Shown here in pieces: positions 5,045 to 37,346 of a stretch of 64,000 nt of DNA (positions are counted from its first letter, which is position 1; each line of letters opens with the position of its first letter). Source of the DNA: an uncultured Bacilli bacterium (GTDB lineage: Bacteria > Bacillota_I > Bacilli_A > RF39 > UBA660); the NCBI GenBank assembly GCA_934177995.1, contig CAKPPW010000001.1:11378-75377 (forward strand). The letters run 5' to 3'. A program made the translations under genes and the position numbers. Below the pieces are notes generated by a model, which was given only the letters and a program-made list of their open reading frames with translations, did not search any database and was not told the DNA's origin.

Positions 5045-5265
5045 GTAATTCTAGATTTCTGTGAAGAATGATAGTAGTTTAGAACGATTATTTTTAAGAG
5101 ACTTAGTGGTTGGTGAAAACTAAGATAATATTTTAGATGAAATACACATTTGGAGAAAGAATCGTGTTAGAGCGTTAATCTATTAAGAGCATAGTTTCTA
5201 TGAAATAAGGTGGTACCGCGGAAGAATCCGTCCTTATATTTGTAGAAACTTTTTATATTTTAAGG
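5045..5265 (+). promoter_or_regulatory. T-box riboswitch leader of tyrS
   Basis: Conserved T-box sequence AAGGTGGTACCGCGG at 5207-5221 followed by a terminator/T-run. Possible UAC specifier in 'gaaATACAca'. Confidence 0.7.
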
Positions 5266-23890: not shown

Positions 23891-24847
23891 ATGATAGAAA
23901 AACAGTTTAAAAACCTAGAAGAACAAATTGAAATAATGAAATATAAAGGACTTACTATCGATGATCCAGACTTTGCTAAGAGGGTATTACTTAGAGAAAA
24001 TTATTTCTTCTTAAATGGTTATCGTTATCCTTTGATGAAAAGTATGAAAGATAAAAGATTTTTAGAAGGGGCTACCTTTGAGGAATTATATAGTATCTTT
24101 TTGTTTGATCGTGGAATTAGAAATGTTTTCTTTAAGAATTTACTTATCATTGAAAATAATCTAAAATCAATTTTTTCCTATCAGTTATCTAAACGATATG
24201 GTTATAGAGAAAAAGATTATTTGAAAGCTAAGAATTTTACTCAAGATAAAACTAAATCAAGACAGGTTAATGATTTAATTCATAAGATGAAAAGGCAGAT
24301 AAGAGTTAATGGTAGAGAGCATACTGCTACTAGTCATTATATGATGAATTATGGTTATGTACCTTTGTGGATATTAGTAAAAGTTTTATCCTTTGGTATA
24401 GTTGGAGAATTATTTTCTATTTTAAAGTATGAAGATCAAAAGAAGATTTGTGATATCTATCATTTAAATGTTTCTACGATGCTAACTTATCTACCAATAT
24501 TATCTAACTATCGTAATTTATGTGCTCATGAAGATATCCTATATGAGAATAGAACACAAAAAGTCATACCTAATACCATTTATCATAAACTTTTAAATAT
24601 AGAAGAAGATGATGAAGGTTATGTTCAAGGTAAAAATGATGTCTTTGCATTAGTAATTATCATGAAAGATATGCTAAGTGAAGAAGAATTTAAAAATATG
24701 ATGTTAGAATTAGAAAGAGAGATAAATAATTTATCTTATAACCTACATACAATTAAAGTAGAGGATGTTTTAAAACGAATGGGCTTTCCTACTAACTTTG
24801 AACAAATTGAAAAAATTGAAAGGAGTTATGAATTAGATGAAAATTGA
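23891..24847 (+). CDS. Abi_2-family (AbiD/AbiF-like) abortive-infection protein
   Basis: N-terminus ...LEEQIEIMKYKGLTIDDPDFAKRVLLRENYFFLNGYRYPL... is the Abi_2 signature. Confidence 0.6.
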   Translation: MIEKQFKNLEEQIEIMKYKGLTIDDPDFAKRVLLRENYFFLNGYRYPLMKSMKDKRFLEGATFEELYSIFLFDRGIRNVFFKNLLIIENNLKSIFSYQLSKRYGYREKDYLKAKNFTQDKTKSRQVNDLIHKMKRQIRVNGREHTATSHYMMNYGYVPLWILVKVLSFGIVGELFSILKYEDQKKICDIYHLNVSTMLTYLPILSNYRNLCAHEDILYENRTQKVIPNTIYHKLLNIEEDDEGYVQGKNDVFALVIIMKDMLSEEEFKNMMLELEREINNLSYNLHTIKVEDVLKRMGFPTNFEQIEKIERSYELDEN

Positions 24848-25970
24848 TAAACTTAAAGATAGTATTTTAATAATAGTAGCTTTTATTTTAGGAGGAGTTT
24901 TAACTTATGTAGTAGTAAATGGTAACTTAACTACTTCTTCTAAAGGAACTACTAGTAGTGGAGGTGCTACTTGTAGTAGTAAAAACTGTACTAAAGTATT
25001 AGTAGATGGTTCAGGAATTAGTCAATCAGTATCTAAAGTATATGATGGTGTTGTTATTGTTAGAAATTATCAAAATAATGAATTAGCTGGATTTGGTACG
25101 GGTTTTGTCTATAAAGAAGATGATAAATATGATTATCTTATAACTAATCATCATGTAATTGATGGTAATAATAAAGTAACAGTAGTAACTAGTAAAGAAG
25201 AAGAGTTGGATGCTGAAGTATTAGGTAGTGATAGCTATGTTGATATTGCAGTAATTAGAATTAAAAAGAATAAAGATTTAACAGTATTATCTATTGGTAC
25301 TAGTGAAAATAGTAAACTAGGAGATTTAGTATTTACTATTGGTACACCTGTTAGTAATGAATATCAAGGTAGTGTTTCTACTGGTCATTTAGCCGGAAAA
25401 GATAGAATGGTAACTGTTAGTACAAGTAGTAATGGTTATGGAACTAGTTCTGGTGATTGGGTTATGAAAGTTTTGCAAACAGATGCTTCAATTAACCCAG
25501 GAAATAGTGGTGGACCACTTATGAATTCTAATGGAGAAGTAATTGGTGTTATTTCTATGAAATTAGTTAAAGAAGAAATAGAAGGTATGGGATTTGCTAT
25601 TCCAATTGAGTATGCTATGTCTAAGATTGAAACTCTAGAAAAAGGAGAAGAAATTAAATGGCCTCAATTAGGAGTACAAATGGTAAACGTATCTGATGTT
25701 AAACAATCTCGTTTTGGTAGCAATTATAATATTCCAAATGATGTTAAAACTGGAGTAGTAGTAGCAGGAATAGTAAGTGGTACTGGTGCTTCTAAATCAG
25801 ATTTAAAAGAAGGAGATATTATTACTAAACTTAATGGAGAAGAAGTAGAAAATGCGGCATATCTTCGTTATGAATTATATAAATATGCTCCAGGAGATAC
25901 AATTACACTTACTTACTTACGTGATGGTAAAGAACATGAAACTAAAGCAGTATTATCAAAAAGTGAATAA
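24837..25970 (+). CDS. htrA: HtrA/DegP-family serine protease with PDZ domain
   Basis: N-terminal TM. Catalytic-triad context HHVIDG, D..AVIRI and NPGNSGGPL, with a C-terminal PDZ. Start overlaps the Abi_2 stop by 11 nt. Confidence 0.8.
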   Translation: MKIDKLKDSILIIVAFILGGVLTYVVVNGNLTTSSKGTTSSGGATCSSKNCTKVLVDGSGISQSVSKVYDGVVIVRNYQNNELAGFGTGFVYKEDDKYDYLITNHHVIDGNNKVTVVTSKEEELDAEVLGSDSYVDIAVIRIKKNKDLTVLSIGTSENSKLGDLVFTIGTPVSNEYQGSVSTGHLAGKDRMVTVSTSSNGYGTSSGDWVMKVLQTDASINPGNSGGPLMNSNGEVIGVISMKLVKEEIEGMGFAIPIEYAMSKIETLEKGEEIKWPQLGVQMVNVSDVKQSRFGSNYNIPNDVKTGVVVAGIVSGTGASKSDLKEGDIITKLNGEEVENAAYLRYELYKYAPGDTITLTYLRDGKEHETKAVLSKSE

Positions 25971-25984
25971 GAGGAGAGGTTATT

Positions 25985-26725
25985 ATGAGAAAAGTTGTAC
26001 CTTTAGAAAAGCAAGTGGAAAGTGAAAAAAGTATAAAACTATTAGAAGATGCTTGTCAAAATGTAAACAATCATTTATCAGAGCTTGATGAAATTGATTA
26101 TCAAGATATTACTGAATTATGTCTTTATCTATTAACTGGTCATAGAAGAAAAGAAATAAACTCTAATATTTTTAAAATAATTTATCTATATATTAAAGAA
26201 AATATGGGACAGATGAATATTACATTTTCTAAAGATAATACTATCAGTAAAATAGAAATAGGGAAAATTAAGATGGGAAGTTTAGGCTTTAAAGATTTTT
26301 CTGAGGAAGAAAAGGAAAAAAGACTTGAGAAAAAAGTTAATTGTTGTGGAATTTATCCAACGATGGATAGAAAAGAAAGGATGTTTTTAACTTTAGAAGA
26401 TAAACTTATTATGGGAAATCAAGCAACTATCAAACAAACTGATTATAATAATATTTTTATAGGTCCATACTATTTTAATAGAGATACTATTTCCCCTGAT
26501 AGAGCCTCATTAACAAAATTAGAACTAATATCTGATAAATCTATTGAAGAAGATATATATGAATTTGATGACTCTGGTGAAAAAGAACTATATCAAGGAA
26601 TTATATCACTAGAAAAACATAAAGATGGTGAGTATTTCATTAAATCTTCAATAGATAGAAAGGAACTTTTTGCAAATAAGTATGGAATAAGACCTTCTAA
26701 TACCTCTTCACTTAGAGTAAAGTAA
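25985..26725 (+). CDS. hypothetical protein
   Basis: 246 aa lying 14 nt downstream of htrA; no domain recognised. Confidence 0.35.
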   Translation: MRKVVPLEKQVESEKSIKLLEDACQNVNNHLSELDEIDYQDITELCLYLLTGHRRKEINSNIFKIIYLYIKENMGQMNITFSKDNTISKIEIGKIKMGSLGFKDFSEEEKEKRLEKKVNCCGIYPTMDRKERMFLTLEDKLIMGNQATIKQTDYNNIFIGPYYFNRDTISPDRASLTKLELISDKSIEEDIYEFDDSGEKELYQGIISLEKHKDGEYFIKSSIDRKELFANKYGIRPSNTSSLRVK

Positions 26726-26730
26726 AAGAA

Positions 26731-28683
26731 CTACTTGATTGGTAGCTCTTTTCTTTTGGCGTTAAAACATCCTATATTGTTATCTTTTAGAGATTGATAT
26801 TTATTTAATAGTTGTTTTTCATCTTTAGCTACTATTTCCAAAGAAGAACCTCCTAATAAATACTTTTGTAAACTAGCTTGCTTTAAATCACTTATAGGAA
26901 GAGTAATACCTTCTGAATATTTATCCTTGTTAGTAACATCTTTTATTTTACCAAATATAGCAGCATCTTGCTTTTTAAACTCTGTTTCTATGTTGTTATC
27001 ATTATAAGTAGTTAAAACAAAGTTCAGATTATTTTGTTCACTATAATTGTCTATCTTTTTTTGCATGAACTTTAAAATATCTTTAGCAAGATTGTAAGTT
27101 ATTTCTTCATCCTTATTTCCTGTTAAAGTATAAATTGCTTCTGATAGACCAACTATATGAAAAGCTAGGGTACCATGCTTTAATAATTTTCTTAATCTAT
27201 CCTTATCCTTTAACTTTTCTCCATCGTGCCAAGTACCTAACTGATATAAAGTTGGAAAGTGGAGAATAGTTTTATCTACTTGTAGCTCAAATCTCTCCAA
27301 AAGGGCATCTTTGGCTTGTTTCAATACTTTTTCTAGTTCTTGATAGAATAATCTATAATCAGTTTCTTTTGTCTTTATATTCATACTTTTAAGGGCTATT
27401 CTAACTAGATTAATAGATATACAAGATATATTACCTTTACCACCAATAATTTTTTTATCAATAGTAGTATTATCTTCTATAACCCTTAGAGAATTGTAAC
27501 CATAATTAACATTTTCTTTAATAGCTTTATTAAAAGAAGCATCTTTATTAATAAAATATAGATTAGAGTAGTTAAGCATAGTAGTAGCAATCTCTTCAGT
27601 CATTTCTCCTTGATAGTAATATTCTATATATTTATTATTTACTAGTGATTTTATTATTAAATCCTTAGTAGAATTATTAGTTCCAAAATTTATTGCTAAG
27701 GGAAAAGATATAGTCTTAAAGAAATTTTTTAAAGAAATGGTAAAGTTTTTCTCACACTTTAGTTTAGCTTTCTTAATAATGGTAGAAAATGCTAAATATA
27801 AAGGTGTATCATTATCTATGGCAAAGTAGGCAGGGGTTATATCAAATGATGTTATGTTATCAATACCTGTTATAGTTAGATAATTAGCTAAATAATTAGC
27901 ATCTAAATATATATCAATATATTCCTTTAAGATTGATTTAAATTCTTTAAGTATGACATTTTCTAAGACTAAGTCAAAATTAATTAATGAGATACTTTGA
28001 TATACTTCTTTACTAAGACTATCTAGATATAATTTGATTCTATTTAGATAGGTATTAATTTTGTCTATAGAATTTAACTCTTTGGCAAAATCAGTATCAA
28101 GGCTAGCAAGTTCAATAAGGTCTACATCACAGGTTGCTATCATACCAAATGGTATAGTTTCTATTGAATGAAGATTAAATATTCCAGCATCTTGGCATCT
28201 TACTGTTTTAGTATCTAGTAAATAAGCTTTAGCAAACTCTGATGAGATAGTTTCTCCAAACTGTAATAGAAATGAATTAGGACGTTCCTTTAAGTTGTCA
28301 TCAATATTATCTAGACCAAGTCTTTCAATAGCTTTTAAAAACTTATGTTGTTGTTTCATAACAAAAGCAGATCTTGAAGCATTTCTATGTTCTCTATAGG
28401 TAGAAAAGGCAAGATAAACATCTTCAAAGTTATTCTCTTTTAACACCTCTTCAATTAAATCTTGAATATTTTCAATATTTATTGTTTTTCTATCTTTATA
28501 TTCTTTCTCTATCTTCTTAAGTACCTTAGAATATACTTTATTAACATCTTCATCTTTATAGGGTATATCTAGTGAATGGAAAGCTTTTTGAATAGCAAGA
28601 GCTATTTTTTCACCTTGAAAACTAGTTCTTTGACCACTTCTTTTGACAACTGTTAATGTGTCAAATGTTGACATATTTATCAT
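26731..28683 (-). CDS. ATP-cone protein, divergent NrdD-like paralog lacking the glycyl-radical/Zn-ribbon tail
   Basis: N-terminus LTVVKRSGQRTSFQGEKIALAIQKA is an ATP-cone. Internal ATCDVDL aligns with NCCLCDVGA of the adjacent NrdD. The C-terminal region aligns with NrdD (F..K....I.G..D..Y.S.....LP.S....Q....K...GG....I). The protein ends without a CxxC...CxxC Zn-ribbon or RxxGY motif. Confidence 0.45.
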   Translation of the reverse strand: MINMSTFDTLTVVKRSGQRTSFQGEKIALAIQKAFHSLDIPYKDEDVNKVYSKVLKKIEKEYKDRKTINIENIQDLIEEVLKENNFEDVYLAFSTYREHRNASRSAFVMKQQHKFLKAIERLGLDNIDDNLKERPNSFLLQFGETISSEFAKAYLLDTKTVRCQDAGIFNLHSIETIPFGMIATCDVDLIELASLDTDFAKELNSIDKINTYLNRIKLYLDSLSKEVYQSISLINFDLVLENVILKEFKSILKEYIDIYLDANYLANYLTITGIDNITSFDITPAYFAIDNDTPLYLAFSTIIKKAKLKCEKNFTISLKNFFKTISFPLAINFGTNNSTKDLIIKSLVNNKYIEYYYQGEMTEEIATTMLNYSNLYFINKDASFNKAIKENVNYGYNSLRVIEDNTTIDKKIIGGKGNISCISINLVRIALKSMNIKTKETDYRLFYQELEKVLKQAKDALLERFELQVDKTILHFPTLYQLGTWHDGEKLKDKDRLRKLLKHGTLAFHIVGLSEAIYTLTGNKDEEITYNLAKDILKFMQKKIDNYSEQNNLNFVLTTYNDNNIETEFKKQDAAIFGKIKDVTNKDKYSEGITLPISDLKQASLQKYLLGGSSLEIVAKDEKQLLNKYQSLKDNNIGCFNAKRKELPIK

Positions 28684-28991
28684 ATATAATTTACACTCCC
28701 TTTTTTCTATATTAATTATACTTGTAAATGCTTATAAAATCAATGATTTAAAAAAGCACTCAAAAAAAACATCTTAAAAAAATAAAATTTATTTTCTTTA
28801 AAGTCCTTATAAATAAAGGGTGAAAGTAAAAATATGCTTAAAAGACATAAAATGTTTTTTTTAAATAAAAAATATGTAAATCGAACAAAAATAAAAATAT
28901 AAAAACAATAAAAACTATTGCATTTAACTAAAAATAATGAGTATAATCGAGTTGTCGAATGAATAAATAAGAAAACAAAGAGGTGTAAAAA

Positions 28992-31178
28992 ATGGCAAAA
29001 GTAAAAGAGGTAAAAAAAGAGAGAAAGGAAAAAAAGAATAGATATAAAAATCCACCTATTAATATTATAAAAAAGAATGGCACTAAGCAACCATTTGATG
29101 GTGAAAAAATAAGAAGTGCAATTGAAAAAAGTGCTGAGAGAGTAATGGTTGATTTAACTGATGAAGCAAAAGATGAAGTTGTTAATATTGTAATTGATTT
29201 ATTAAAAAATCAAACTAGTGATGCTGAAGTTAGTCAAATTCATAATTGTGTAGAAGCAGCACTAGAACAAGTTAATCCTTTAGTAGCTAAAAGCTATAGA
29301 GAGTATCGTAACTATAAGAATGATTTTGTACATATCTTAGATAAAGTTTATAAAAAAGCTCAAGCAATTAATTATATTGGAGATAAAGAAAACTCTAATA
29401 CTGATAGTGCTTTAGTATCTACCCAAAGAAGTTTAGTATATGGTAACTTAAATAAAGAACTATATAAGAAATTCTTCTTAACAAAAGCTGAGATAGAAGC
29501 TTGTGAAGATGGCTATATTTATGTTCATGATATGAGTGCTAGACGTGATACTATGAACTGTTGTTTATGTGATGTTGGAGCCGTCATGAGAGATGGTTTT
29601 GAAATGGGTAATTTATGGTACAATGAACCAAAGAGCCTTGATACTGCCTATGATGTTATGGGAGATGTAATTATCAATACAGCAGCTATGCAATATGGTG
29701 GTTTTACAGTACCAGAAGTTGATACTATTTTAACTCCATATGCTAAGAAAAGTTATAATAAGTATTATGATGAATATATGGAAATAACTAATAATGAAGA
29801 TCCAGAAAAAGCTGAAGAATATGCTTGGAAAAAGACAAGACGTGAATGTGAACAAGGTTATCAAGGAATTGAATATAAATTAAATAGTGTTGGTTCTTCT
29901 CGTGGTGATTATCCATTTGTAACTTTTACTTTTGGACATGAAGAAGATAGATTTGGACAAATGATTAGTGAAGTTATTTTAAAAACTCATCAAAAAGGAC
30001 AAGGGAAACCAGGATATAGAAAGCCAACTTTATTTCCAAAATTAGTATTCTTATATGATAAAAATCTTCATGGTGAGGGTGGCAAGATGCATTATCTATT
30101 TGAAGATGCTCTAGATTGTAGTAGTAAGACAATGTATCCTGATTACTTATCATTAACAGGGGAAGGATACGTTCCTTCAATGTTTAAGAAATATGGAAAA
30201 ATTGTTAGTCCGATGGGATGTCGTGCTTTCTTATCACCTTGGTTTGAAAGAGGGGGAATGGAACCAGCTGATGAAAACGATCAACCAATCTTTATTGGAA
30301 GATTTAATATTGGAGCTATTTCTTTAAATTTACCAATGATTTTAGCTAAGTCTAGGGAAGAACAAAAAGATTTCTATGAAGTACTTGATTATTATCTAGA
30401 AATGATTCGTAAGATTCATATTCGTACTTATAACTATCTAGCTAAGAAGAAAGCATCTACTAATCCACTTGCTTACTGTGAAGGAGGATTCTATGGAGGT
30501 AGATTAAAACCAAATGAGCCTATTGAACCAATTTTAAAATCATCTACTGCTTCTTTTGGAGTAACAGCTTTAAATGAATTACAAGAGTTATATAATGGTA
30601 AAAGTCTAGTAGAAGATGGTGAATTTGCTCTTGAAGTTATGAGATATATTAATGATAAGACGCAAGAGTTTAAAAAAGAAGATGGAATTTTATATGCTAT
30701 TTATGGAACACCAGCTGAAAGTTTATGTGGTACACAAGTTGAACAATTTAGAAAGAAATATGGTATTATTAAAGGAGTATCTGATAGAGAATATGTTTCT
30801 AATAGTTTCCACTGTGGTGTGTGGGAAGATATTACTGGTATACAAAAACAAGATTTAGAAGGAAGATTCTGGGAACTATTTAAGGGTGGACGTATTCAGT
30901 ATGTTCGTTATAACTTAAACTATAATAGAAAAGCGATGGAAACTTATGTTGAAAGAGCTATGGATAAAGGTTTCTATGAAGGAGTTAACTTATCACTTTC
31001 TTACTGTAATGTTTGTGGCCATGAGGAATTAGATATGGATACCTGTCCAAAATGTGGAAGTGATGACCTTACAAAGATTGATCGTATGAATGGATATTTA
31101 TCTTATTCAAGAGTACATGGTGATACGAGACTTAATCATGCTAAGATGGTAGAAATTTCAGAAAGGAAGAGTATGTAG
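28992..31178 (+). CDS. nrdD: anaerobic ribonucleoside-triphosphate reductase (class III RNR)
   Basis: ATP-cone N-terminus, C-terminal Zn ribbon CNVCG...CPKCG and glycyl-radical motif RMNGYLSY. Confidence 0.85.
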   Translation: MAKVKEVKKERKEKKNRYKNPPINIIKKNGTKQPFDGEKIRSAIEKSAERVMVDLTDEAKDEVVNIVIDLLKNQTSDAEVSQIHNCVEAALEQVNPLVAKSYREYRNYKNDFVHILDKVYKKAQAINYIGDKENSNTDSALVSTQRSLVYGNLNKELYKKFFLTKAEIEACEDGYIYVHDMSARRDTMNCCLCDVGAVMRDGFEMGNLWYNEPKSLDTAYDVMGDVIINTAAMQYGGFTVPEVDTILTPYAKKSYNKYYDEYMEITNNEDPEKAEEYAWKKTRRECEQGYQGIEYKLNSVGSSRGDYPFVTFTFGHEEDRFGQMISEVILKTHQKGQGKPGYRKPTLFPKLVFLYDKNLHGEGGKMHYLFEDALDCSSKTMYPDYLSLTGEGYVPSMFKKYGKIVSPMGCRAFLSPWFERGGMEPADENDQPIFIGRFNIGAISLNLPMILAKSREEQKDFYEVLDYYLEMIRKIHIRTYNYLAKKKASTNPLAYCEGGFYGGRLKPNEPIEPILKSSTASFGVTALNELQELYNGKSLVEDGEFALEVMRYINDKTQEFKKEDGILYAIYGTPAESLCGTQVEQFRKKYGIIKGVSDREYVSNSFHCGVWEDITGIQKQDLEGRFWELFKGGRIQYVRYNLNYNRKAMETYVERAMDKGFYEGVNLSLSYCNVCGHEELDMDTCPKCGSDDLTKIDRMNGYLSYSRVHGDTRLNHAKMVEISERKSM

Positions 31179-31751
31179 ATGAAATATCATAATGTAACAA
31201 AAGCTGATATGTTAAATGGTGAAGGATTACGTGTTGTATTATGGGTAAGTGGTTGTTCTCATAAATGTCCAGGCTGCCAAAATACTATTACGTGGAATCC
31301 TGATGATGGTGTTAATTTTGATGATGATACAATAAAAGAGATTTATCATGAGCTTGACCAAGATTGGTGTAGTGGACTAACTTTATCAGGAGGAGATCCA
31401 CTCTTTCTTGGTAATAGAAAAACAATTAGAGATTTAGTCATGAATGTTAAACAGTTATACAAAGATAAGACCATTTGGTGCTATACTGGATATACTTGGG
31501 AAGAATTAATCGCTCAAAGAGAAGTTGATAAAAATCTAGATGATATTTTAAATTGTATTGATGTCTTATTAGAAGGTAAATTTGTTATGAAACTTCATGA
31601 TGATAGATTACATTATGTAGGTAGTAGTAACCAACGTATAATTGATGTTAAGAAAAGTGTAGAAGAAGGAAGAGTCGTTTTATATATAGATAATAGCAAT
31701 ATAGGCGATAGTGATAAAGCAGCTGTAGTACAGTGTGCAGTAAATAGTTAG
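31179..31751 (+). CDS. nrdG: anaerobic RNR activating protein (radical SAM)
   Basis: GCSHKCPGCQN radical-SAM CxxxCxxC cluster. Start abuts the nrdD stop. Confidence 0.8.
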   Translation: MKYHNVTKADMLNGEGLRVVLWVSGCSHKCPGCQNTITWNPDDGVNFDDDTIKEIYHELDQDWCSGLTLSGGDPLFLGNRKTIRDLVMNVKQLYKDKTIWCYTGYTWEELIAQREVDKNLDDILNCIDVLLEGKFVMKLHDDRLHYVGSSNQRIIDVKKSVEEGRVVLYIDNSNIGDSDKAAVVQCAVNS

Positions 31752-31759
31752 GAGAAGTT

Positions 31760-32215
31760 ATGAAAACAAGAGGATTTGAAGTAGTTAAAGGATATGAAGA
31801 TAAGGATATACATTTGCCAGTAAGAGGAACTAAACATGCTGCTGGTTATGATATAGAAGCAGCAGAAGATGTAGTTATTCCTGTTTATGAAAAAGGAATT
31901 AAACCAACTTTAGTTCCTACAGGATTAAAAGCTTATTGTATGGATGATGAATGTATTTTCTTACTTAACAGAAGTAGTGGTCCAAAGAAAGGATTTGTTC
32001 TTGCTAACAGTGTTGGTTTAGTAGATTCTGATTATTATGGTAATGAAAATAATGATGGACATATTTACTTTGCTTTCTTTAACTGTGGTAAGGAAGAATT
32101 ACATGTTAAGAAGGGTGATGTAATTGGTCAAGCAGTATTTGAAAAATATTTAACTGTTGATAGTGATATTGCTGAAGGGGTTAGAAATGGAGGATTTGGT
32201 TCTACTGATAAATAG
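31760..32215 (+). CDS. dut: dUTP diphosphatase
   Basis: dUTPase motifs (AAGYDI, NRSSG, GLVDSDYYGN, GGFGSTD). Confidence 0.75.
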   Translation: MKTRGFEVVKGYEDKDIHLPVRGTKHAAGYDIEAAEDVVIPVYEKGIKPTLVPTGLKAYCMDDECIFLLNRSSGPKKGFVLANSVGLVDSDYYGNENNDGHIYFAFFNCGKEELHVKKGDVIGQAVFEKYLTVDSDIAEGVRNGGFGSTDK

Positions 32216-36659: not shown

Positions 36660-37007
36660 TTGGTGATAAATATGTATCAAAACAAAATTACACTTACACC
36701 ACAAGAAATCTTAGAGAAAGATTTTAAGATTGATACTCGTGGATACAGATTAAAAGAAGTTGATGAATTCTTAGATATGATAATTTCTGATTATGAACAG
36801 TTTTATAAAATAATCGAAAGTATGGAAAAAGAAAAAACTGAATTATTAAAAGAAATTATGTCCTTAAAACAAGAATTAAGAAATGTTTCAATGGATGCTG
36901 AAATAGCAAAAAATTCTAAATCAGATACAATGGAAATCACTAATTTGGATATTTTAAGAAGACTTAGCAATTTAGAAAAAGCAGTATTTGGTAAAGACAG
37001 CGAATAA
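36660..37007 (+). CDS. gpsB: cell-cycle protein GpsB (DivIVA-domain)
   Basis: TPQEILEKDFKIDTRGYRLKEVDEFLDMIISDYEQ is the DivIVA/GpsB N-domain. Conserved position next to rnpB. Confidence 0.8.
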   Translation: MVINMYQNKITLTPQEILEKDFKIDTRGYRLKEVDEFLDMIISDYEQFYKIIESMEKEKTELLKEIMSLKQELRNVSMDAEIAKNSKSDTMEITNLDILRRLSNLEKAVFGKDSE

Positions 37008-37346
37008 TACTTGGGCAAGTGCTAGGGTAACCTAGAGGAAAGTCCATGCTCGCACTATCTGTGATGATAGTAGTGTTCGTGCTTAGGGAAAAAATAACCT
37101 AAGGTAGATTTATTCTAACGGCAAAACTTTATCTAAAGGATTAATCCCATGATGAAGTGATAACGTGCCACAGAAACGATACTTTTGGAAACGAAAGGGT
37201 GAAACGAGGTAAACCCCACGAGCGAGAAACCCAAATTTTGGTAGGGGAGTCTCCATGAAAGAAAGATAATGGATTGGAGGACTAGTAATAGTAGATAGAT
37301 ACTTGCCACCTAGTAGTAGGTACAAAACATGGCTTATAAAGTATTA
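37005..37346 (+). ncRNA. rnpB: RNase P RNA, type B (Bacillus-like)
   Basis: GAGGAAAGTCCATGCTCGCAC, AGTGTTCGTGC, GTGCCACAG, GGTAAACCCC, CGAGCGAGAAACCCAAATTTTGGTAGGGGA and ACAAAACATGGCTTA all match B. subtilis rnpB. P1 pairing aatactt/aagtatt defines the ends. Confidence 0.9.

What the first reader, a model, noticed from the sequence alone, without database searches (positions are those of the whole stretch)
26731..31751. Divergent NrdD-like pseudo-enzyme (ATP-cone kept, glycyl-radical tail lost) head-to-head with genuine nrdDG-dut
The 650-aa minus-strand protein starts with a clear ATP-cone and aligns along its length with the adjacent class III RNR. Examples are ATCDVDL versus NCCLCDVGA, and a C-terminal block aligning with NrdD residues around ...ILYAIYGTPAE...FRKKYGIIKGVSDREYVSNSFH...GGRIQYV. 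It terminates before the Zn ribbon and RxxGY glycyl-radical motif that every functional NrdD needs. A catalytically dead but allosterically competent RNR paralog sharing a ~300-bp divergent promoter region with the real enzyme could be a regulator or dNTP sensor. It is not simply a broken gene, because the ORF is intact at 650 aa.
Basis: partly seen in the sequence, partly recalled or inferred. Interest (0 to 1): 0.7.

Follow-up and report, generated by a model that had tools for sequence, protein, structure and literature searches.

The report
Dead NrdD paralog keeping its ATP-cone
Next to a working anaerobic ribonucleotide reductase operon, this gut bacterium keeps a second copy of the enzyme that can no longer make DNA building blocks but has carefully preserved its ATP/dATP-sensing domain, and it belongs to a large, apparently undescribed family of such "dead" copies.

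Summary
ORF 26731-28683(-) encodes 650 aa: an ATP-cone plus a full NrdD-type barrel (AF2 pLDDT 85.7; Foldseek E 1e-32 to Prevotella copri NrdD). It lacks every catalytic element: thiyl Cys (N397), HxHD, NxN flap, loop 2, specificity-site hairpin, Zn ribbon and glycyl-radical motif.

It is not a broken gene or an assembly artefact. The same truncated protein occurs in 27 species-level genomes of uncultured gut Bacilli. dN/dS is 0.06-0.09, lowest in the cone and linker. A profile search found 82 clusters (50% identity) of Cys-less, tail-less relatives, which form one clade.

It is not a copy of the adjacent NrdD, which is S. thermophilus-like. It descends from a P. copri-like lineage whose nearest active members encode the glycyl-radical tail as a separate 55-aa peptide.

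It lies beside nrdDG in 29 of 31 distinct arrangements examined, even where nrdDG is of another subclass.

Best reading, by inference: an ATP/dATP-sensing non-catalytic regulator of the anaerobic RNR system. Only the activity site survives; the specificity site is gone. There is no NrdR box. A conserved 100-bp dyad element lies between the two promoters, and its binder is unknown. I found no published description.

The parts
26731..28683 (-). CDS of the 650-aa non-catalytic NrdD homolog (pseudo-NrdD)
   Evidence: ORF. Pfam ATP-cone and truncated NRDD. AF2 model pLDDT 85.7. Foldseek top hits are PcNrdD structures, E 1e-32. dN/dS 0.06-0.09.
28381..28653 (-). ATP-cone domain (aa 11-101). The nucleotide-contacting residues K14, R15, Y96, R97, R100 and R104 are invariant in the family.
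   Evidence: Pfam PF03477, E 1.7e-16. Invariant columns in A1/A2/A3. Equivalent to PcNrdD Lys7, Arg8, Tyr83, Arg87, Arg91, which bind two (d)ATP. Region omega 0.01-0.05.
28312..28356 (-). Connector helix KQQHKFLKAIERLGL (aa 110-124), invariant. The NxN active-site flap that follows it in active relatives is deleted here.
   Evidence: Alignment columns. Invariant list. Omega 0-0.07. Flap role from PMC11226230 and PMC12662201.
26890..28296 (-). Degenerate NrdD alpha/beta barrel (aa 130-598)
   Evidence: Pfam NRDD profile 4-448/562. Foldseek TM 0.78 (normalised to target) against the dATP-bound PcNrdD dimer 8p27, which lacks an ordered GRD. The N-half is poorly conserved (0.47 against 0.82 in active relatives) and the C-half better (0.60).
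27463..27504 (-). Former Cys-radical (finger) loop, YGYNSLRVIEDNTT. N397 occupies the thiyl-Cys position of YMGCRTRV.
   Evidence: Alignment. Numbering. PcNrdD Cys416. Mapping through P0117.
28123..28179 (-). Degenerate HxHD (FNLHS, aa 169-173) and first-strand Cys position (IATCDV, C185)
   Evidence: Alignment. C185 is kept only in the window's own subclade. Other family members have I, L, M, N or S there.
28715..28743 (-). Conserved sigma-70-type promoter of the pseudo-NrdD gene (TTGATT-17-TATAAT), followed by an AAGGGAG ribosome-binding site
   Evidence: Promoter scan. Conserved as TTGATTT-N17-TATAAT in 18 aligned loci.
28762..28862 (.). ~100-bp dyad element between the two promoters: AAAAAAACAT / ATGTTTTTTT arms (28763-28772 and 28852-28861) around a central CCTTATAAATAAAGG (28805-28819)
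   Evidence: Inverted repeat I6. Aligned in 18 loci. Exact composite with a constant 99-101 bp span in 25 loci. The 10-mer occurs at 5.2/kb upstream of pseudo genes against 0.03/kb background. A related pair also lies upstream of an intact nrdD in L036, with a slightly longer span (108 bp).
28918..28947 (+). Promoter-like site of nrdD (TTGCAT-18-TATAAT)
   Evidence: Read from the sequence. The -10 hexamer is conserved in the alignment of intergenic regions.
28992..31178 (+). Genuine class III RNR catalytic subunit NrdD (728 aa) with ATP-cone, both Cys, Zn ribbon and RMNGY
   Evidence: TIGR02487 565.8 bits against cut-off 326. Nearest solved structure is S. thermophilus NrdD 9d3x, E 1.7e-88.
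31179..31751 (+). NrdG activase
   Evidence: TIGR02491 175 bits against cut-off 126.
31760..32215 (+). dUTPase (dut)
   Evidence: Pfam dUTPase, E 4.5e-15.

Best explanation
The 650-aa protein is a pseudoenzyme. It descends from a Prevotella-copri-type class III ribonucleotide reductase, has lost all radical chemistry and substrate or specificity-effector binding, and is kept by selection for its N-terminal ATP-cone, its connector helix and an inert barrel scaffold.

Shown:
- It has the NrdD fold.
- It lacks the thiyl Cys, the conserved first-strand Cys, HxHD, the NxN flap, loop 2, the s-site hairpin, the ATPAE loop, the Zn ribbon and the glycyl-radical domain.
- It is under strong purifying selection, strongest on the cone and connector.
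- It is one member of a large, apparently single-origin family.
- It has a conserved promoter and is nearly always adjacent to an nrdDG operon, whatever the subclass of that operon.

Inferred: the ATP-cone still binds ATP/dATP. Probably two nucleotides bind, because all basic and aromatic contact residues of the two-nucleotide type are invariant. As in every other known ATP-cone protein, nucleotide binding would change the protein's oligomeric or conformational state. That change would be used to regulate the neighbouring anaerobic RNR system.

The most likely route is nucleotide-dependent protein-protein association with the catalytic NrdD. This would use cone-cone contacts, or cone contacts with the outer helices of the barrel's C-terminal half, of the kind seen in dATP-bound PcNrdD tetramers and StNrdD cone dimers. 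Control at the level of transcription is less likely.

The gene itself is probably co-regulated with nrdDG through the shared intergenic region.
For: Identity and loss of catalysis:
- Pfam and NCBIfam, pairwise and PDB sequence matches.
- AF2 model and Foldseek.
- Residue-level alignments against active relatives and PcNrdD, with functional residue assignments from PMC11226230.

Functional gene:
- dN/dS is 0.06-0.09 at dS 0.16-0.34, comparable to nrdG and dut.
- By region, omega is 0.01-0.05 in the cone, 0-0.07 in the connector, 0.08-0.26 in the N-half of the barrel and 0.03-0.09 in the C-half.
- The promoter and RBS are conserved.
- ORFs are intact in 27 species-level genomes.
- 82 of 91 aligned 50%-identity cluster representatives share the losses. 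They form one clade with a ladder of progressive loss.

The cone is the functional core:
- Cone conservation is 0.78 in the pseudo family against 0.72 in active relatives. N-half barrel conservation is 0.47 against 0.82.
- Four of the five columns invariant across 91 sequences lie in the cone (R15, E71, Q74, R104).

Link to nrdDG:
- Divergent from nrdD-nrdG-dut in L001-L005, L011-L024, L027-L029, L031, L033-L035, L037 and L043.
- Next to a different NrdD subclass in L006 (697 aa) and in L030/L032 (nrdG, a 782-791-aa nrdD, trxB).
- Co-directional, directly upstream of nrdG, a Trx-fused nrdD and trxB in L093.

Precedent for the mechanism: ATP-cone roof contacts with the outer C-half helices in PcNrdD dATP tetramers, and dATP-driven cone dimerisation in StNrdD.
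Against: - No experiment or complex prediction links the protein physically to NrdD.
- The catalytic NrdD in the window has its own apparently intact ATP-cone, so the need for a second sensor is unexplained.
- The partner NrdD changes subclass between genomes. This argues against a tight core-to-core heterodimer and weakens any specific-interface model.
- Two family members are not adjacent to nrd genes: L025 and L094.
- The PcNrdD residues that dock the cone are not well conserved even among active enzymes.
- Nucleotide binding by the cone is inferred from sequence only.
Confidence: 0.5

Rival explanations
1. Transcription-level regulator: a functional analogue of NrdR. The nucleotide-loaded pseudo-NrdD binds the conserved ~100-bp dyad element (AAAAAAACAT ... 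CCTTTATTTATAAGG ... ATGTTTTTTT) between the divergent promoters and controls nrdDG and its own gene.
For: - The arrangement of a divergent regulator gene and target operon is classical.
- There is no NrdR box in the window.
- The dyad element has a constant 99-101 bp span in 25 loci and is enriched about 170-fold upstream of pseudo genes.
- It persists where the nrdDG subclass differs (L030, L032, L006).
- Copies of the 10-mer lie upstream of the pseudo-nrdG-nrdD operon in L093.
Against: - The protein has no recognisable DNA-binding domain. The Zn ribbon, which is the DNA-binding part of NrdR, is exactly what has been lost.
- Family pI ranges from 5.6 to 9.0 with a mean of 7.55, so the proteins are not consistently basic.
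- A similar dyad pair (span 108 bp) precedes a catalytically intact nrdD with no adjacent pseudo gene in L036. It is absent upstream of the unlinked pseudo gene in L025. The element therefore looks like an ancestral nrd operator for some other factor, inherited by the pseudo gene.
- The A/T tracts about 12-18 bp upstream of each -35 could also simply be UP-like promoter elements.
Confidence: 0.12
2. Obligate non-catalytic partner subunit. The pseudo-NrdD forms a heterodimer with the catalytic NrdD, as yeast Rnr4 does with Rnr2. This would exploit the half-of-sites behaviour of class III RNRs.
For: - PcNrdD dimers have one active and one inactive monomer at a time.
- The first dimer-interface helix (EFAKAYLLD) is well conserved in the pseudo family.
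- The gene linkage to nrdD is tight.
- Rnr2-Rnr4 is a precedent, cited from my own knowledge.
Against: - Pseudo-NrdD and the adjacent NrdD share only about 22% identity and belong to different subclasses.
- The partner subclass varies between genomes.
- The specificity site, which is formed at the dimer interface, and loop 2 are destroyed in the pseudo protein.
- The second interface helix is poorly conserved (0.42).
Confidence: 0.08
3. Neofunctionalised for something unrelated to RNR regulation. Examples would be an adenylate-sensing scaffold for another process, or a binder of a new ligand in the former active-site barrel. On this reading the adjacency to nrdDG is only inherited synteny.
For: - The barrel is still under purifying selection, with omega 0.03-0.26.
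- The window's subclade has a specific conserved motif, RVIEDNTT, in the old finger loop.
- L025 and L094 are not next to nrd genes.
- The downstream AbiD/HtrA-like synteny is also conserved, which shows that the local gene order is simply stable in this clade.
Against: - Linkage to nrdDG survives replacement of nrdDG by other subclasses and a change of orientation. That is more than passive synteny would predict.
- No new conserved polar constellation was found across the wider family; RVIEDNTT is not conserved in alignment A3.
- No hits to defence-system models or other Pfam families.
Confidence: 0.22
4. It is a decaying pseudogene or assembly truncation of a real nrdD, or it is still catalytic with a glycyl-radical tail supplied in trans.
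For: - The closest active relatives do encode the glycyl-radical tail as a separate 49-63-aa peptide, so a trans tail is conceivable in principle.
- Databases annotate relatives as 'anaerobic ribonucleoside-triphosphate reductase' (P0048).
Against: - ORFs are intact with the same stop in 27 species, and dN/dS is 0.06-0.09.
- The thiyl Cys is absent in all 82 pseudo representatives.
- No GRD peptide is encoded in the window apart from NrdD's own C-terminus.
- The Zn ribbon, HxHD, flap and ATPAE loops are all missing.
Confidence: 0.03

Closest known systems
Prevotella copri class III RNR (PcNrdD; PDB 8P23, 8P27, 8P28, 8P2C) and the PRK07111-type NrdDs of Bacilli
   Same: Best sequence match in the PDB (E 5.8e-31) and best structural match (Foldseek E 1e-32). 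It shares the N-terminal ATP-cone of the two-nucleotide type with the same Lys/Arg/Tyr contacts. It also shares the 10-stranded barrel, the GxGN strand (Asn435 corresponds to N418), and the outer C-half helices.
   Different: It lacks the thiyl Cys (Cys416 becomes N397), the conserved Cys171 equivalent, HxHD, the NxN flap, loop 2, the s-site hairpin, the ATPAE/Glu581 loop, the Zn site and Gly711. It therefore cannot reduce nucleotides or read specificity effectors.
Split NrdD of related uncultured Bacilli (about 765-aa large ORF plus a 49-63-aa glycyl-radical peptide; e.g. P0071, 'Firmicutes bacterium CAG:822')
   Same: Nearest catalytically intact relatives (about 35% identity). They share the KQQHKFLKA(I/L)ESLGL connector and DRLRKxLKHGTL motifs and fall in the same part of the tree.
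   Different: These keep both Cys, the flap, loop 2 and the Zn ribbon, and have a trans-encoded RxxGY peptide followed by nrdG. The window protein has none of these and no such peptide gene.
NrdR (Zn-ribbon plus ATP-cone transcriptional repressor of nrd operons)
   Same: A non-catalytic protein whose only nucleotide site is an ATP-cone and which is dedicated to RNR control. This is a functional analogy for what the pseudo-NrdD may do.
   Different: NrdR is about 150 aa and has an N-terminal Zn ribbon that binds NrdR boxes. The window protein scores 16 bits against a cut-off of 125 for TIGR00244, has no Zn ribbon, and the window has no NrdR box.
Catalytically inactive RNR subunits of class I: yeast Rnr4 (beta') and beta-herpesvirus R1 homologs (M45/UL45). 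Cited from my own knowledge, not tested here.
   Same: RNR paralogs that lost catalytic or cofactor residues but are retained for non-catalytic roles, namely heterodimer partner or cofactor assembly (Rnr4) and signalling inhibition (M45).
   Different: They belong to a different RNR class, fold context and organisms, and none is built around a retained ATP-cone. I found no class III example in the literature searched.
Leeuwenhoekiella blandensis NrdB with an N-terminal ATP-cone (PDB 5OLK)
   Same: It shows that an ATP-cone can regulate RNR from a polypeptide other than the catalytic one, through dATP-driven oligomerisation. 5OLK is a weak sequence hit of the window cone (E 0.0013).
   Different: There the cone sits on an active radical-generating subunit of a class I enzyme. 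Here it sits on an inert class III barrel.

Membership tests
Functional class III RNR catalytic subunit (NrdD) | [quoted passage not shown] | tested here: met
   AF2 model pLDDT 85.7. Foldseek E 1e-32 to PcNrdD, with TM (normalised to target) up to 0.79 against GRD-less PcNrdD chains. Pfam NRDD E 9e-35.
Functional class III RNR catalytic subunit (NrdD) | Thiyl-radical Cys at the tip of the finger loop (PcNrdD Cys416; motif MGCR) | tested here: not met
   YMGCRTRV aligns to YGYNSLRV, placing N397 at the Cys position. The Cys is absent in all 82 pseudo-family representatives.
Functional class III RNR catalytic subunit (NrdD) | Second catalytic Cys on the first barrel strand (PcNrdD Cys171) | tested here: inconclusive
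   The window has C185 (IATCDV) at the homologous column. The column is I, L, M, N or S in most family members, so the Cys is not under selection.
Functional class III RNR catalytic subunit (NrdD) | C-terminal Zn ribbon and glycyl-radical motif RxxGY | tested here: not met
   The protein stops after the last barrel strand. The Pfam match ends at profile position 448/562. There are no residues in the Zn and GRD columns. No trans GRD peptide is encoded in the window.
Functional class III RNR catalytic subunit (NrdD) | Substrate-binding elements: HxHD, NxN flap, ATPAE(G) loop | tested here: not met
   IHIHD becomes FNLHS. RENANVDGD is deleted. ATPAEGLSG becomes TYNDNNIET. Roles are taken from PMC11226230.
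Functional class III RNR catalytic subunit (NrdD) | Specificity site: beta-hairpin GFxTGHG and loop 2 | tested here: not met
   The hairpin is replaced by DTDFAK. There is a 10-residue deletion at loop 2 (HNLNTMHSRAGAQ becomes KTISFP).
Functional class III RNR catalytic subunit (NrdD) | Score above the curated equivalog cut-offs (NCBIfam) | tested here: not met
   PRK07111: 214 bits against 764. TIGR02487: 111 against 326.
ATP-cone domain (PF03477), two-nucleotide type | Domain match and conservation of the nucleotide-contacting Lys/Arg at the N-terminus and Tyr/Arg in helix 4 | tested here: met
   PF03477 at 60.9 bits against cut-off 25.8. K14, R15, Y96, R97, R100 and R104 are invariant and correspond to PcNrdD Lys7, Arg8, Tyr83, Arg84, Arg87 and Arg91.
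ATP-cone domain (PF03477), two-nucleotide type | Actual binding of ATP/dATP and a nucleotide-dependent change of state | not testable with these tools
   Requires ITC or HPLC nucleotide-binding assays and SEC, GEMMA or cryo-EM.
NrdR transcriptional repressor | N-terminal Zn ribbon plus ATP-cone, about 150 aa; NrdR boxes in nrd promoters | tested here: not met
   TIGR00244 at 16.4 bits against cut-off 124.65. No Zn ribbon. No matches to ACACWATATATWGTGT with up to 3 mismatches in the window.
Pseudoenzyme (operational definition) | Clear homolog of an enzyme, catalytic residues missing, yet conserved under purifying selection | tested here: met
Split NrdD / GrcA-like trans glycyl-radical system | Barrel subunit retaining the catalytic Cys, plus a separately encoded RxxGY peptide next to it | tested here: not met
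   Present in relatives. The window protein lacks the Cys and no peptide gene is present.
Rnr4-like inactive heterodimer partner | Stable heterodimer with the catalytic paralog | not testable with these tools
   No complex prediction or biochemistry was available. Indirect evidence is against it (variable partner subclass).

The most novel reading that the evidence does not exclude
The family is a free-standing activity-site subunit. It would be an ATP/dATP sensor built from an inert RNR barrel that regulates catalytic class III RNRs of any subclass in trans, through cone-mediated hetero-oligomerisation. That would be a third mode of RNR overall-activity control, beside in-cis ATP-cones and the repressor NrdR. 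It would have evolved after the resident NrdD was functionally displaced by an incoming nrdDG.
Probability: 0.25. Interest if true: 0.85.

Novelty: new variant of a known kind. Interest (0 to 1): 0.66.

Why it matters
Ribonucleotide reductase regulation is a textbook case of allostery, and the ATP-cone is its master switch. Until now that switch has been known only on active RNR subunits and on NrdR. This finding is a large, strongly conserved bacterial family in which the cone and connector are the best-conserved parts of an otherwise dead class III RNR. It implies that the cone has an output that does not pass through its own active site.

The family also offers a natural dissection of which NrdD elements serve allostery and which serve catalysis. 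It exposes an evolutionary series that can be followed step by step: intact enzyme, then split enzyme with a trans glycyl-radical peptide, then tail-less and Cys-less protein, then flap-less and loop-2-less protein.

Practically, these proteins are annotated in databases as anaerobic RNRs. That inflates apparent RNR redundancy in gut Bacilli genomes.

Tried and rejected
- **NrdR box search.** I searched the window for ACACWATATATWGTGT with up to 3 mismatches and found none.
- **Rfam scan of the window.** It found only RNase P and a T-box, far from the locus, and nothing in the intergenic region.
- **NrdR or a trans glycyl-radical peptide in the window.** None found. A 64-kb window also cannot exclude nrdR elsewhere in the genome.
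- **Defence-system models (PADLOC).** No hit for the pseudo-NrdD.
- **Viral contigs.** No relatives, so this is not a phage-derived family.
- **Basic charge as a hint of DNA binding.** Not consistent across the family.
- **The dyad element as a pseudo-NrdD operator.** Weakened by L036, where an intact nrdD has the element without an adjacent pseudo gene, and by L025, where an unlinked pseudo gene lacks it.
- **Read-through of the stop in the split relatives.** Rejected, because the small ORF lies in all three frames.
- **AFDB structural search.** The library was unavailable.
- **Literature.** Searches for NrdD pseudoenzymes, truncated or inactive class III RNRs, NrdD-like paralogs, split NrdD/GrcA, and ATP-cone pseudoenzymes found no description. 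The library does not include most subscription journals.

Full report
**1. What is at the coordinates**

The minus-strand ORF 26731-28683 encodes 650 aa. It lies head-to-head, 308 bp apart, with a plus-strand operon of a 728-aa protein, a 190-aa protein and a 151-aa protein.

Pfam assigns the 650-aa protein an ATP-cone (residues 11-101, E 1.7e-16) and the NRDD family (residues 130-598, E 9e-35). The NRDD match stops at profile position 448 of 562. NCBIfam NrdD equivalogs match far below their cut-offs: PRK07111 at 214 bits against 764, and TIGR02487 at 111 against 326.

The neighbours are a bona fide NrdD (TIGR02487, 566 bits), NrdG (TIGR02491, 175 bits) and a dUTPase. BLASTP of the two NrdD-like proteins aligns residues 9-258 and 409-606 at 21-22% identity (E 1e-8 and 1e-6).

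**2. It is a complete NrdD barrel with every catalytic element removed**

An AlphaFold2 model built on a 48-sequence alignment is confident: mean pLDDT 85.7 and pTM 0.76. Its best structural matches are the cryo-EM structures of Prevotella copri NrdD (E 1e-32), followed by S. thermophilus, T4 and T. maritima NrdD. The TM-score is 0.78-0.79 against the dATP-bound PcNrdD chains, in which the glycyl-radical domain is disordered.

I mapped the functional residues described for PcNrdD (PMC11226230) onto the window protein. The mapping went through a close active relative (P0117) and the family alignment.

| Element in active NrdD | State in the window protein |
|---|---|
| Thiyl Cys (MGCRTRV, Pc Cys416) | N397 in YGYNSLRV |
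| HxHD phosphate motif (IHIHD) | FNLHS |
| NxN active-site flap (RENANVDGD) | Deleted |
| Specificity-site hairpin (GFxTGHG) | DTDFAK |
| Loop 2 | 10-residue deletion |
| ATPAEGLSG loop (Glu581) | TYNDNNIET |
| Zn ribbon and RxxGY | Absent; the protein ends right after the last barrel strand |

However, that column is I, L, M, N or S in most relatives, so the Cys is not under selection.

The ATP-cone, by contrast, is intact. K14, R15, Y96, R97, R100 and R104 correspond to PcNrdD Lys7, Arg8, Tyr83, Arg84, Arg87 and Arg91, which hold two (d)ATP molecules. They are invariant. So 'catalytically dead' is right. 'Allosterically competent' is true only for the activity site. The specificity site and the flap that couples the cone to the active site are gone.

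**3. Not a broken gene, not an artefact**

A protein search found graded relatives: 637-676-aa proteins at 45-97% identity, 687-715-aa proteins at 36-40%, and then catalytically intact NrdDs at about 35%.

A scan of one genome per species returned 80 loci. Of these, 27 carry the Cys-less, tail-less form with an intact ORF. The hosts are uncultured gut Bacilli from human (Hadza), rabbit and chicken. They include 'Clostridium sp. CAG:451' (94% identical) and Candidatus Onthousia faecigallinarum.

Against close relatives (dS 0.16-0.34), dN/dS of the gene is 0.06-0.09. That is similar to nrdG and dut (0.05-0.12, apart from nrdG values of 0.24 and 1.2 in the two closest pairs, where nrdG dS is below 0.02) and about four-fold higher than nrdD (0.014-0.024).

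By region, omega is 0.01-0.05 in the cone, 0-0.07 in the connector and first helix, 0.08-0.26 in the N-terminal half of the barrel and 0.03-0.09 in the C-terminal half. Column conservation tells the same story. The cone is more conserved in the dead family (0.78) than in its active relatives (0.72). The N-half of the barrel drops from 0.82 to 0.47.

The gene has a conserved TTGATTT-N17-TATAAT promoter and a ribosome-binding site.

**4. A large family with a single origin**

A profile of 24 dead members was searched against 1.84 billion 50%-identity representatives. It gave 538 hits at E<=1e-30. Of 91 sequences that I aligned (86 of the search's top hits, excluding clear fragments and proteins over about 1,000 aa, plus five reference sequences), 82 lack the thiyl Cys and the glycyl-radical tail.

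In neighbour-joining trees they form one clade nested among P. copri/PRK07111-type NrdDs. Long-branch attraction is a caveat. The branching order mirrors progressive loss:

- P0222 keeps a Zn ribbon and a degenerate tail.
- P0122 keeps the Zn ribbon only.
- P0256 keeps the flap, hairpin and loop 2; P0200, P0212 and P0224 keep the hairpin and loop 2 with a degraded flap.
- The ~700-aa forms keep loop-2 length.
- The 600-676-aa forms, including the window protein, have lost all of these.

Four of the five columns invariant across all 91 sequences are in the ATP-cone. There are no relatives on viral contigs and no names in the source databases. One relative is annotated as 'anaerobic ribonucleoside-triphosphate reductase'.

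**5. Origin: not a duplicate of the neighbour**

The adjacent NrdD is closest to S. thermophilus and T4 NrdD (E 1.7e-88 and 7.9e-83). The dead protein is closest to PcNrdD.

Its nearest active relatives are remarkable in themselves. In 34 of the 80 species loci the NrdD ORF (about 765 aa) stops after the Zn ribbon. A separate 49-63-aa ORF follows after 1-36 nt, in any of the three frames, and then nrdG. The small ORF carries the consensus GEGV.FERIRRITGYLVGT.DRFNNGKRAEE.DRVKH. The tail-less dead family plausibly arose from such a split ancestor by loss of the peptide gene.

Across genomes in which the dead protein has diverged to 38-53% identity, the adjacent catalytic NrdD stays 86-93% identical.

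**6. Genetic linkage to nrdDG**

The divergent arrangement pseudo-NrdD <-> nrdD-nrdG(-dut) is found in nearly all loci.

Linkage persists when the catalytic system is of another kind. L006 has a 697-aa NrdD plus NrdG. L030 and L032 have nrdG, a 782-791-aa nrdD, trxB and dut. In the distant member L093 the dead gene lies co-directionally, directly upstream of nrdG, a Trx/Grx-fused nrdD and trxB.

There are two exceptions. L025 lies next to an ABC transporter, and L094 lies next to HTH/MatE/Feo genes.

**7. The intergenic region**

There is no NrdR box, and Rfam finds nothing there.

An alignment of 18 intergenic regions shows both promoters conserved. Between them lies a ~100-bp dyad element of the form AAAAAAACAT - about 35 nt - CCTTTATTTATAAGG - about 30 nt - ATGTTTTTTT. 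In the window it spans 28762-28862.

The exact composite, with a constant span of 99-101 bp, occurs once in each of 25 loci. It is absent from 67 others. The 10-mer occurs at 5.2 per kb upstream of dead genes against 0.03 per kb background.

A similar pair (span 108 bp) also precedes an intact PRK07111-type nrdD with no adjacent dead gene (L036). It is absent upstream of the unlinked dead gene in L025. I therefore read it as an ancestral nrd regulatory element that the dead gene inherited and now shares with nrdDG. It is not evidence that the dead protein binds DNA. Its binder is unknown, and UP-element-like function of the T-tracts is a mundane alternative.

**8. How it most likely works**

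Every known ATP-cone acts by nucleotide-dependent repositioning or oligomerisation. In PcNrdD, dATP drives tetramers in which the cone roof docks on two outer helices of the C-terminal half of another dimer's barrel. In StNrdD, dATP dimerises the cones and pulls the flap away.

[quoted passage not shown] It has discarded the flap and the active and specificity sites. It also stays beside nrdDG regardless of subclass.

The best-supported inference is an ATP/dATP sensor that regulates the anaerobic RNR system. I give the sensor-regulator idea as a whole a probability of about 0.5. The favoured route is hetero-association with the catalytic NrdD. Transcriptional control is a weaker variant (0.12), because the protein has no DNA-binding domain, family pI ranges from 5.6 to 9.0, and the dyad-element evidence above points elsewhere. 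A strict Rnr4-like heterodimer (0.08) is disfavoured by the variable partner subclass and the destroyed dimer-interface specificity site. An unrelated new function (0.22) cannot be excluded. A relic, an artefact or trans-complemented catalysis (0.03) is effectively excluded.

An open problem for the favoured model is that the catalytic NrdD has its own intact cone.

**9. Novelty**

Full-text searches found no description of a class III RNR pseudoenzyme, a tail-less NrdD paralog, an ATP-cone pseudoenzyme or a split NrdD. The material covered includes recent RNR phylogeny papers and a 2026 review of glycyl-radical enzymes. The searchable library is incomplete.

Dead RNR subunits are known in class I: yeast Rnr4 and herpesvirus R1 homologs (from my own knowledge). 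I therefore classify this as a new variant of a known kind rather than as categorically new.

Noticed in passing
L009 8001-10481 (also L010 and 34 of the 80 species loci, e.g. L038-L040, L045-L049, L058-L061): Naturally split class III RNR. The NrdD ORF (about 765 aa) keeps both Cys and the Zn ribbon but ends before the glycyl-radical motif, often with a Cys-rich tail such as ..CGGR. A separate 49-63-aa ORF follows, then nrdG. It carries GEGV.FERIRRITGYLVGT.DRFNNGKRAEE.DRVKH and lies 1-36 nt downstream in any of the three frames. It looks like a GrcA-style replaceable glycyl-radical cofactor for RNR. I found no description in the literature searched.
   Followed up: partly
window 28762-28862 (arms 28763-28772 and 28852-28861; centre 28805-28819): Conserved ~100-bp dyad element between the divergent promoters: AAAAAAACAT ... 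CCTTATAAATAAAGG ... ATGTTTTTTT. Its span is constant at 99-101 bp in 25 loci. The 10-mer is enriched about 170-fold upstream of pseudo-NrdD genes and is also found upstream of one intact nrdD (L036). It is not an NrdR box, and the binder is unknown.
   Followed up: partly
L030 2580-5659, L032 2660-5724, L093 9102-12897, L006 4868-7626: In some relatives the catalytic nrdDG next to the pseudo gene has been exchanged for other subclasses. One is a 772-791-aa NrdD that has a thioredoxin/glutaredoxin domain fused in L093 and sits next to a thioredoxin-reductase-like gene, suggesting a thiol-dependent NrdD. The pseudo gene stays in place.
   Followed up: partly
window 23891-25970 (and 25985-26725): An AbiD-family gene (PADLOC AbiD, E 2e-56; Pfam Abi_2) overlaps by 11 nt the start of a trypsin/PDZ (HtrA-like) protease gene. 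The protease's domain resembles the protease modules of defence systems (RT-Protease, LmuA). A conserved 246-aa protein with no family hit follows. The trio is syntenic next to the pseudo-NrdD across the clade (L001, L004, L011; in L032 and L093 only the AbiD and protease pair, with no ~245-aa ORF seen).
   Followed up: no
P0199 (910 aa, alignment): An active NrdD relative carries an intein-like insertion of about 150 aa (CLAGDT...VHNSG) exactly inside the ATPAEGLSG substrate-loop motif.
   Followed up: no
window 5052-5238 and 37007-37341: A T-box leader (111 bits) and a class B bacterial RNase P RNA (272 bits). These are ordinary features consistent with a low-GC Bacilli chromosome (GC about 28%).
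   Followed up: no
L001 vs L004 vs window: The catalytic NrdD is unusually conserved (86-93% identity) between genomes whose pseudo-NrdD (38-53%) and nrdG (about 70-80%) have diverged much further; dut ranges from about 35% to over 90%. In L004 the dut gene is of a different type (DCD-like).
   Followed up: no
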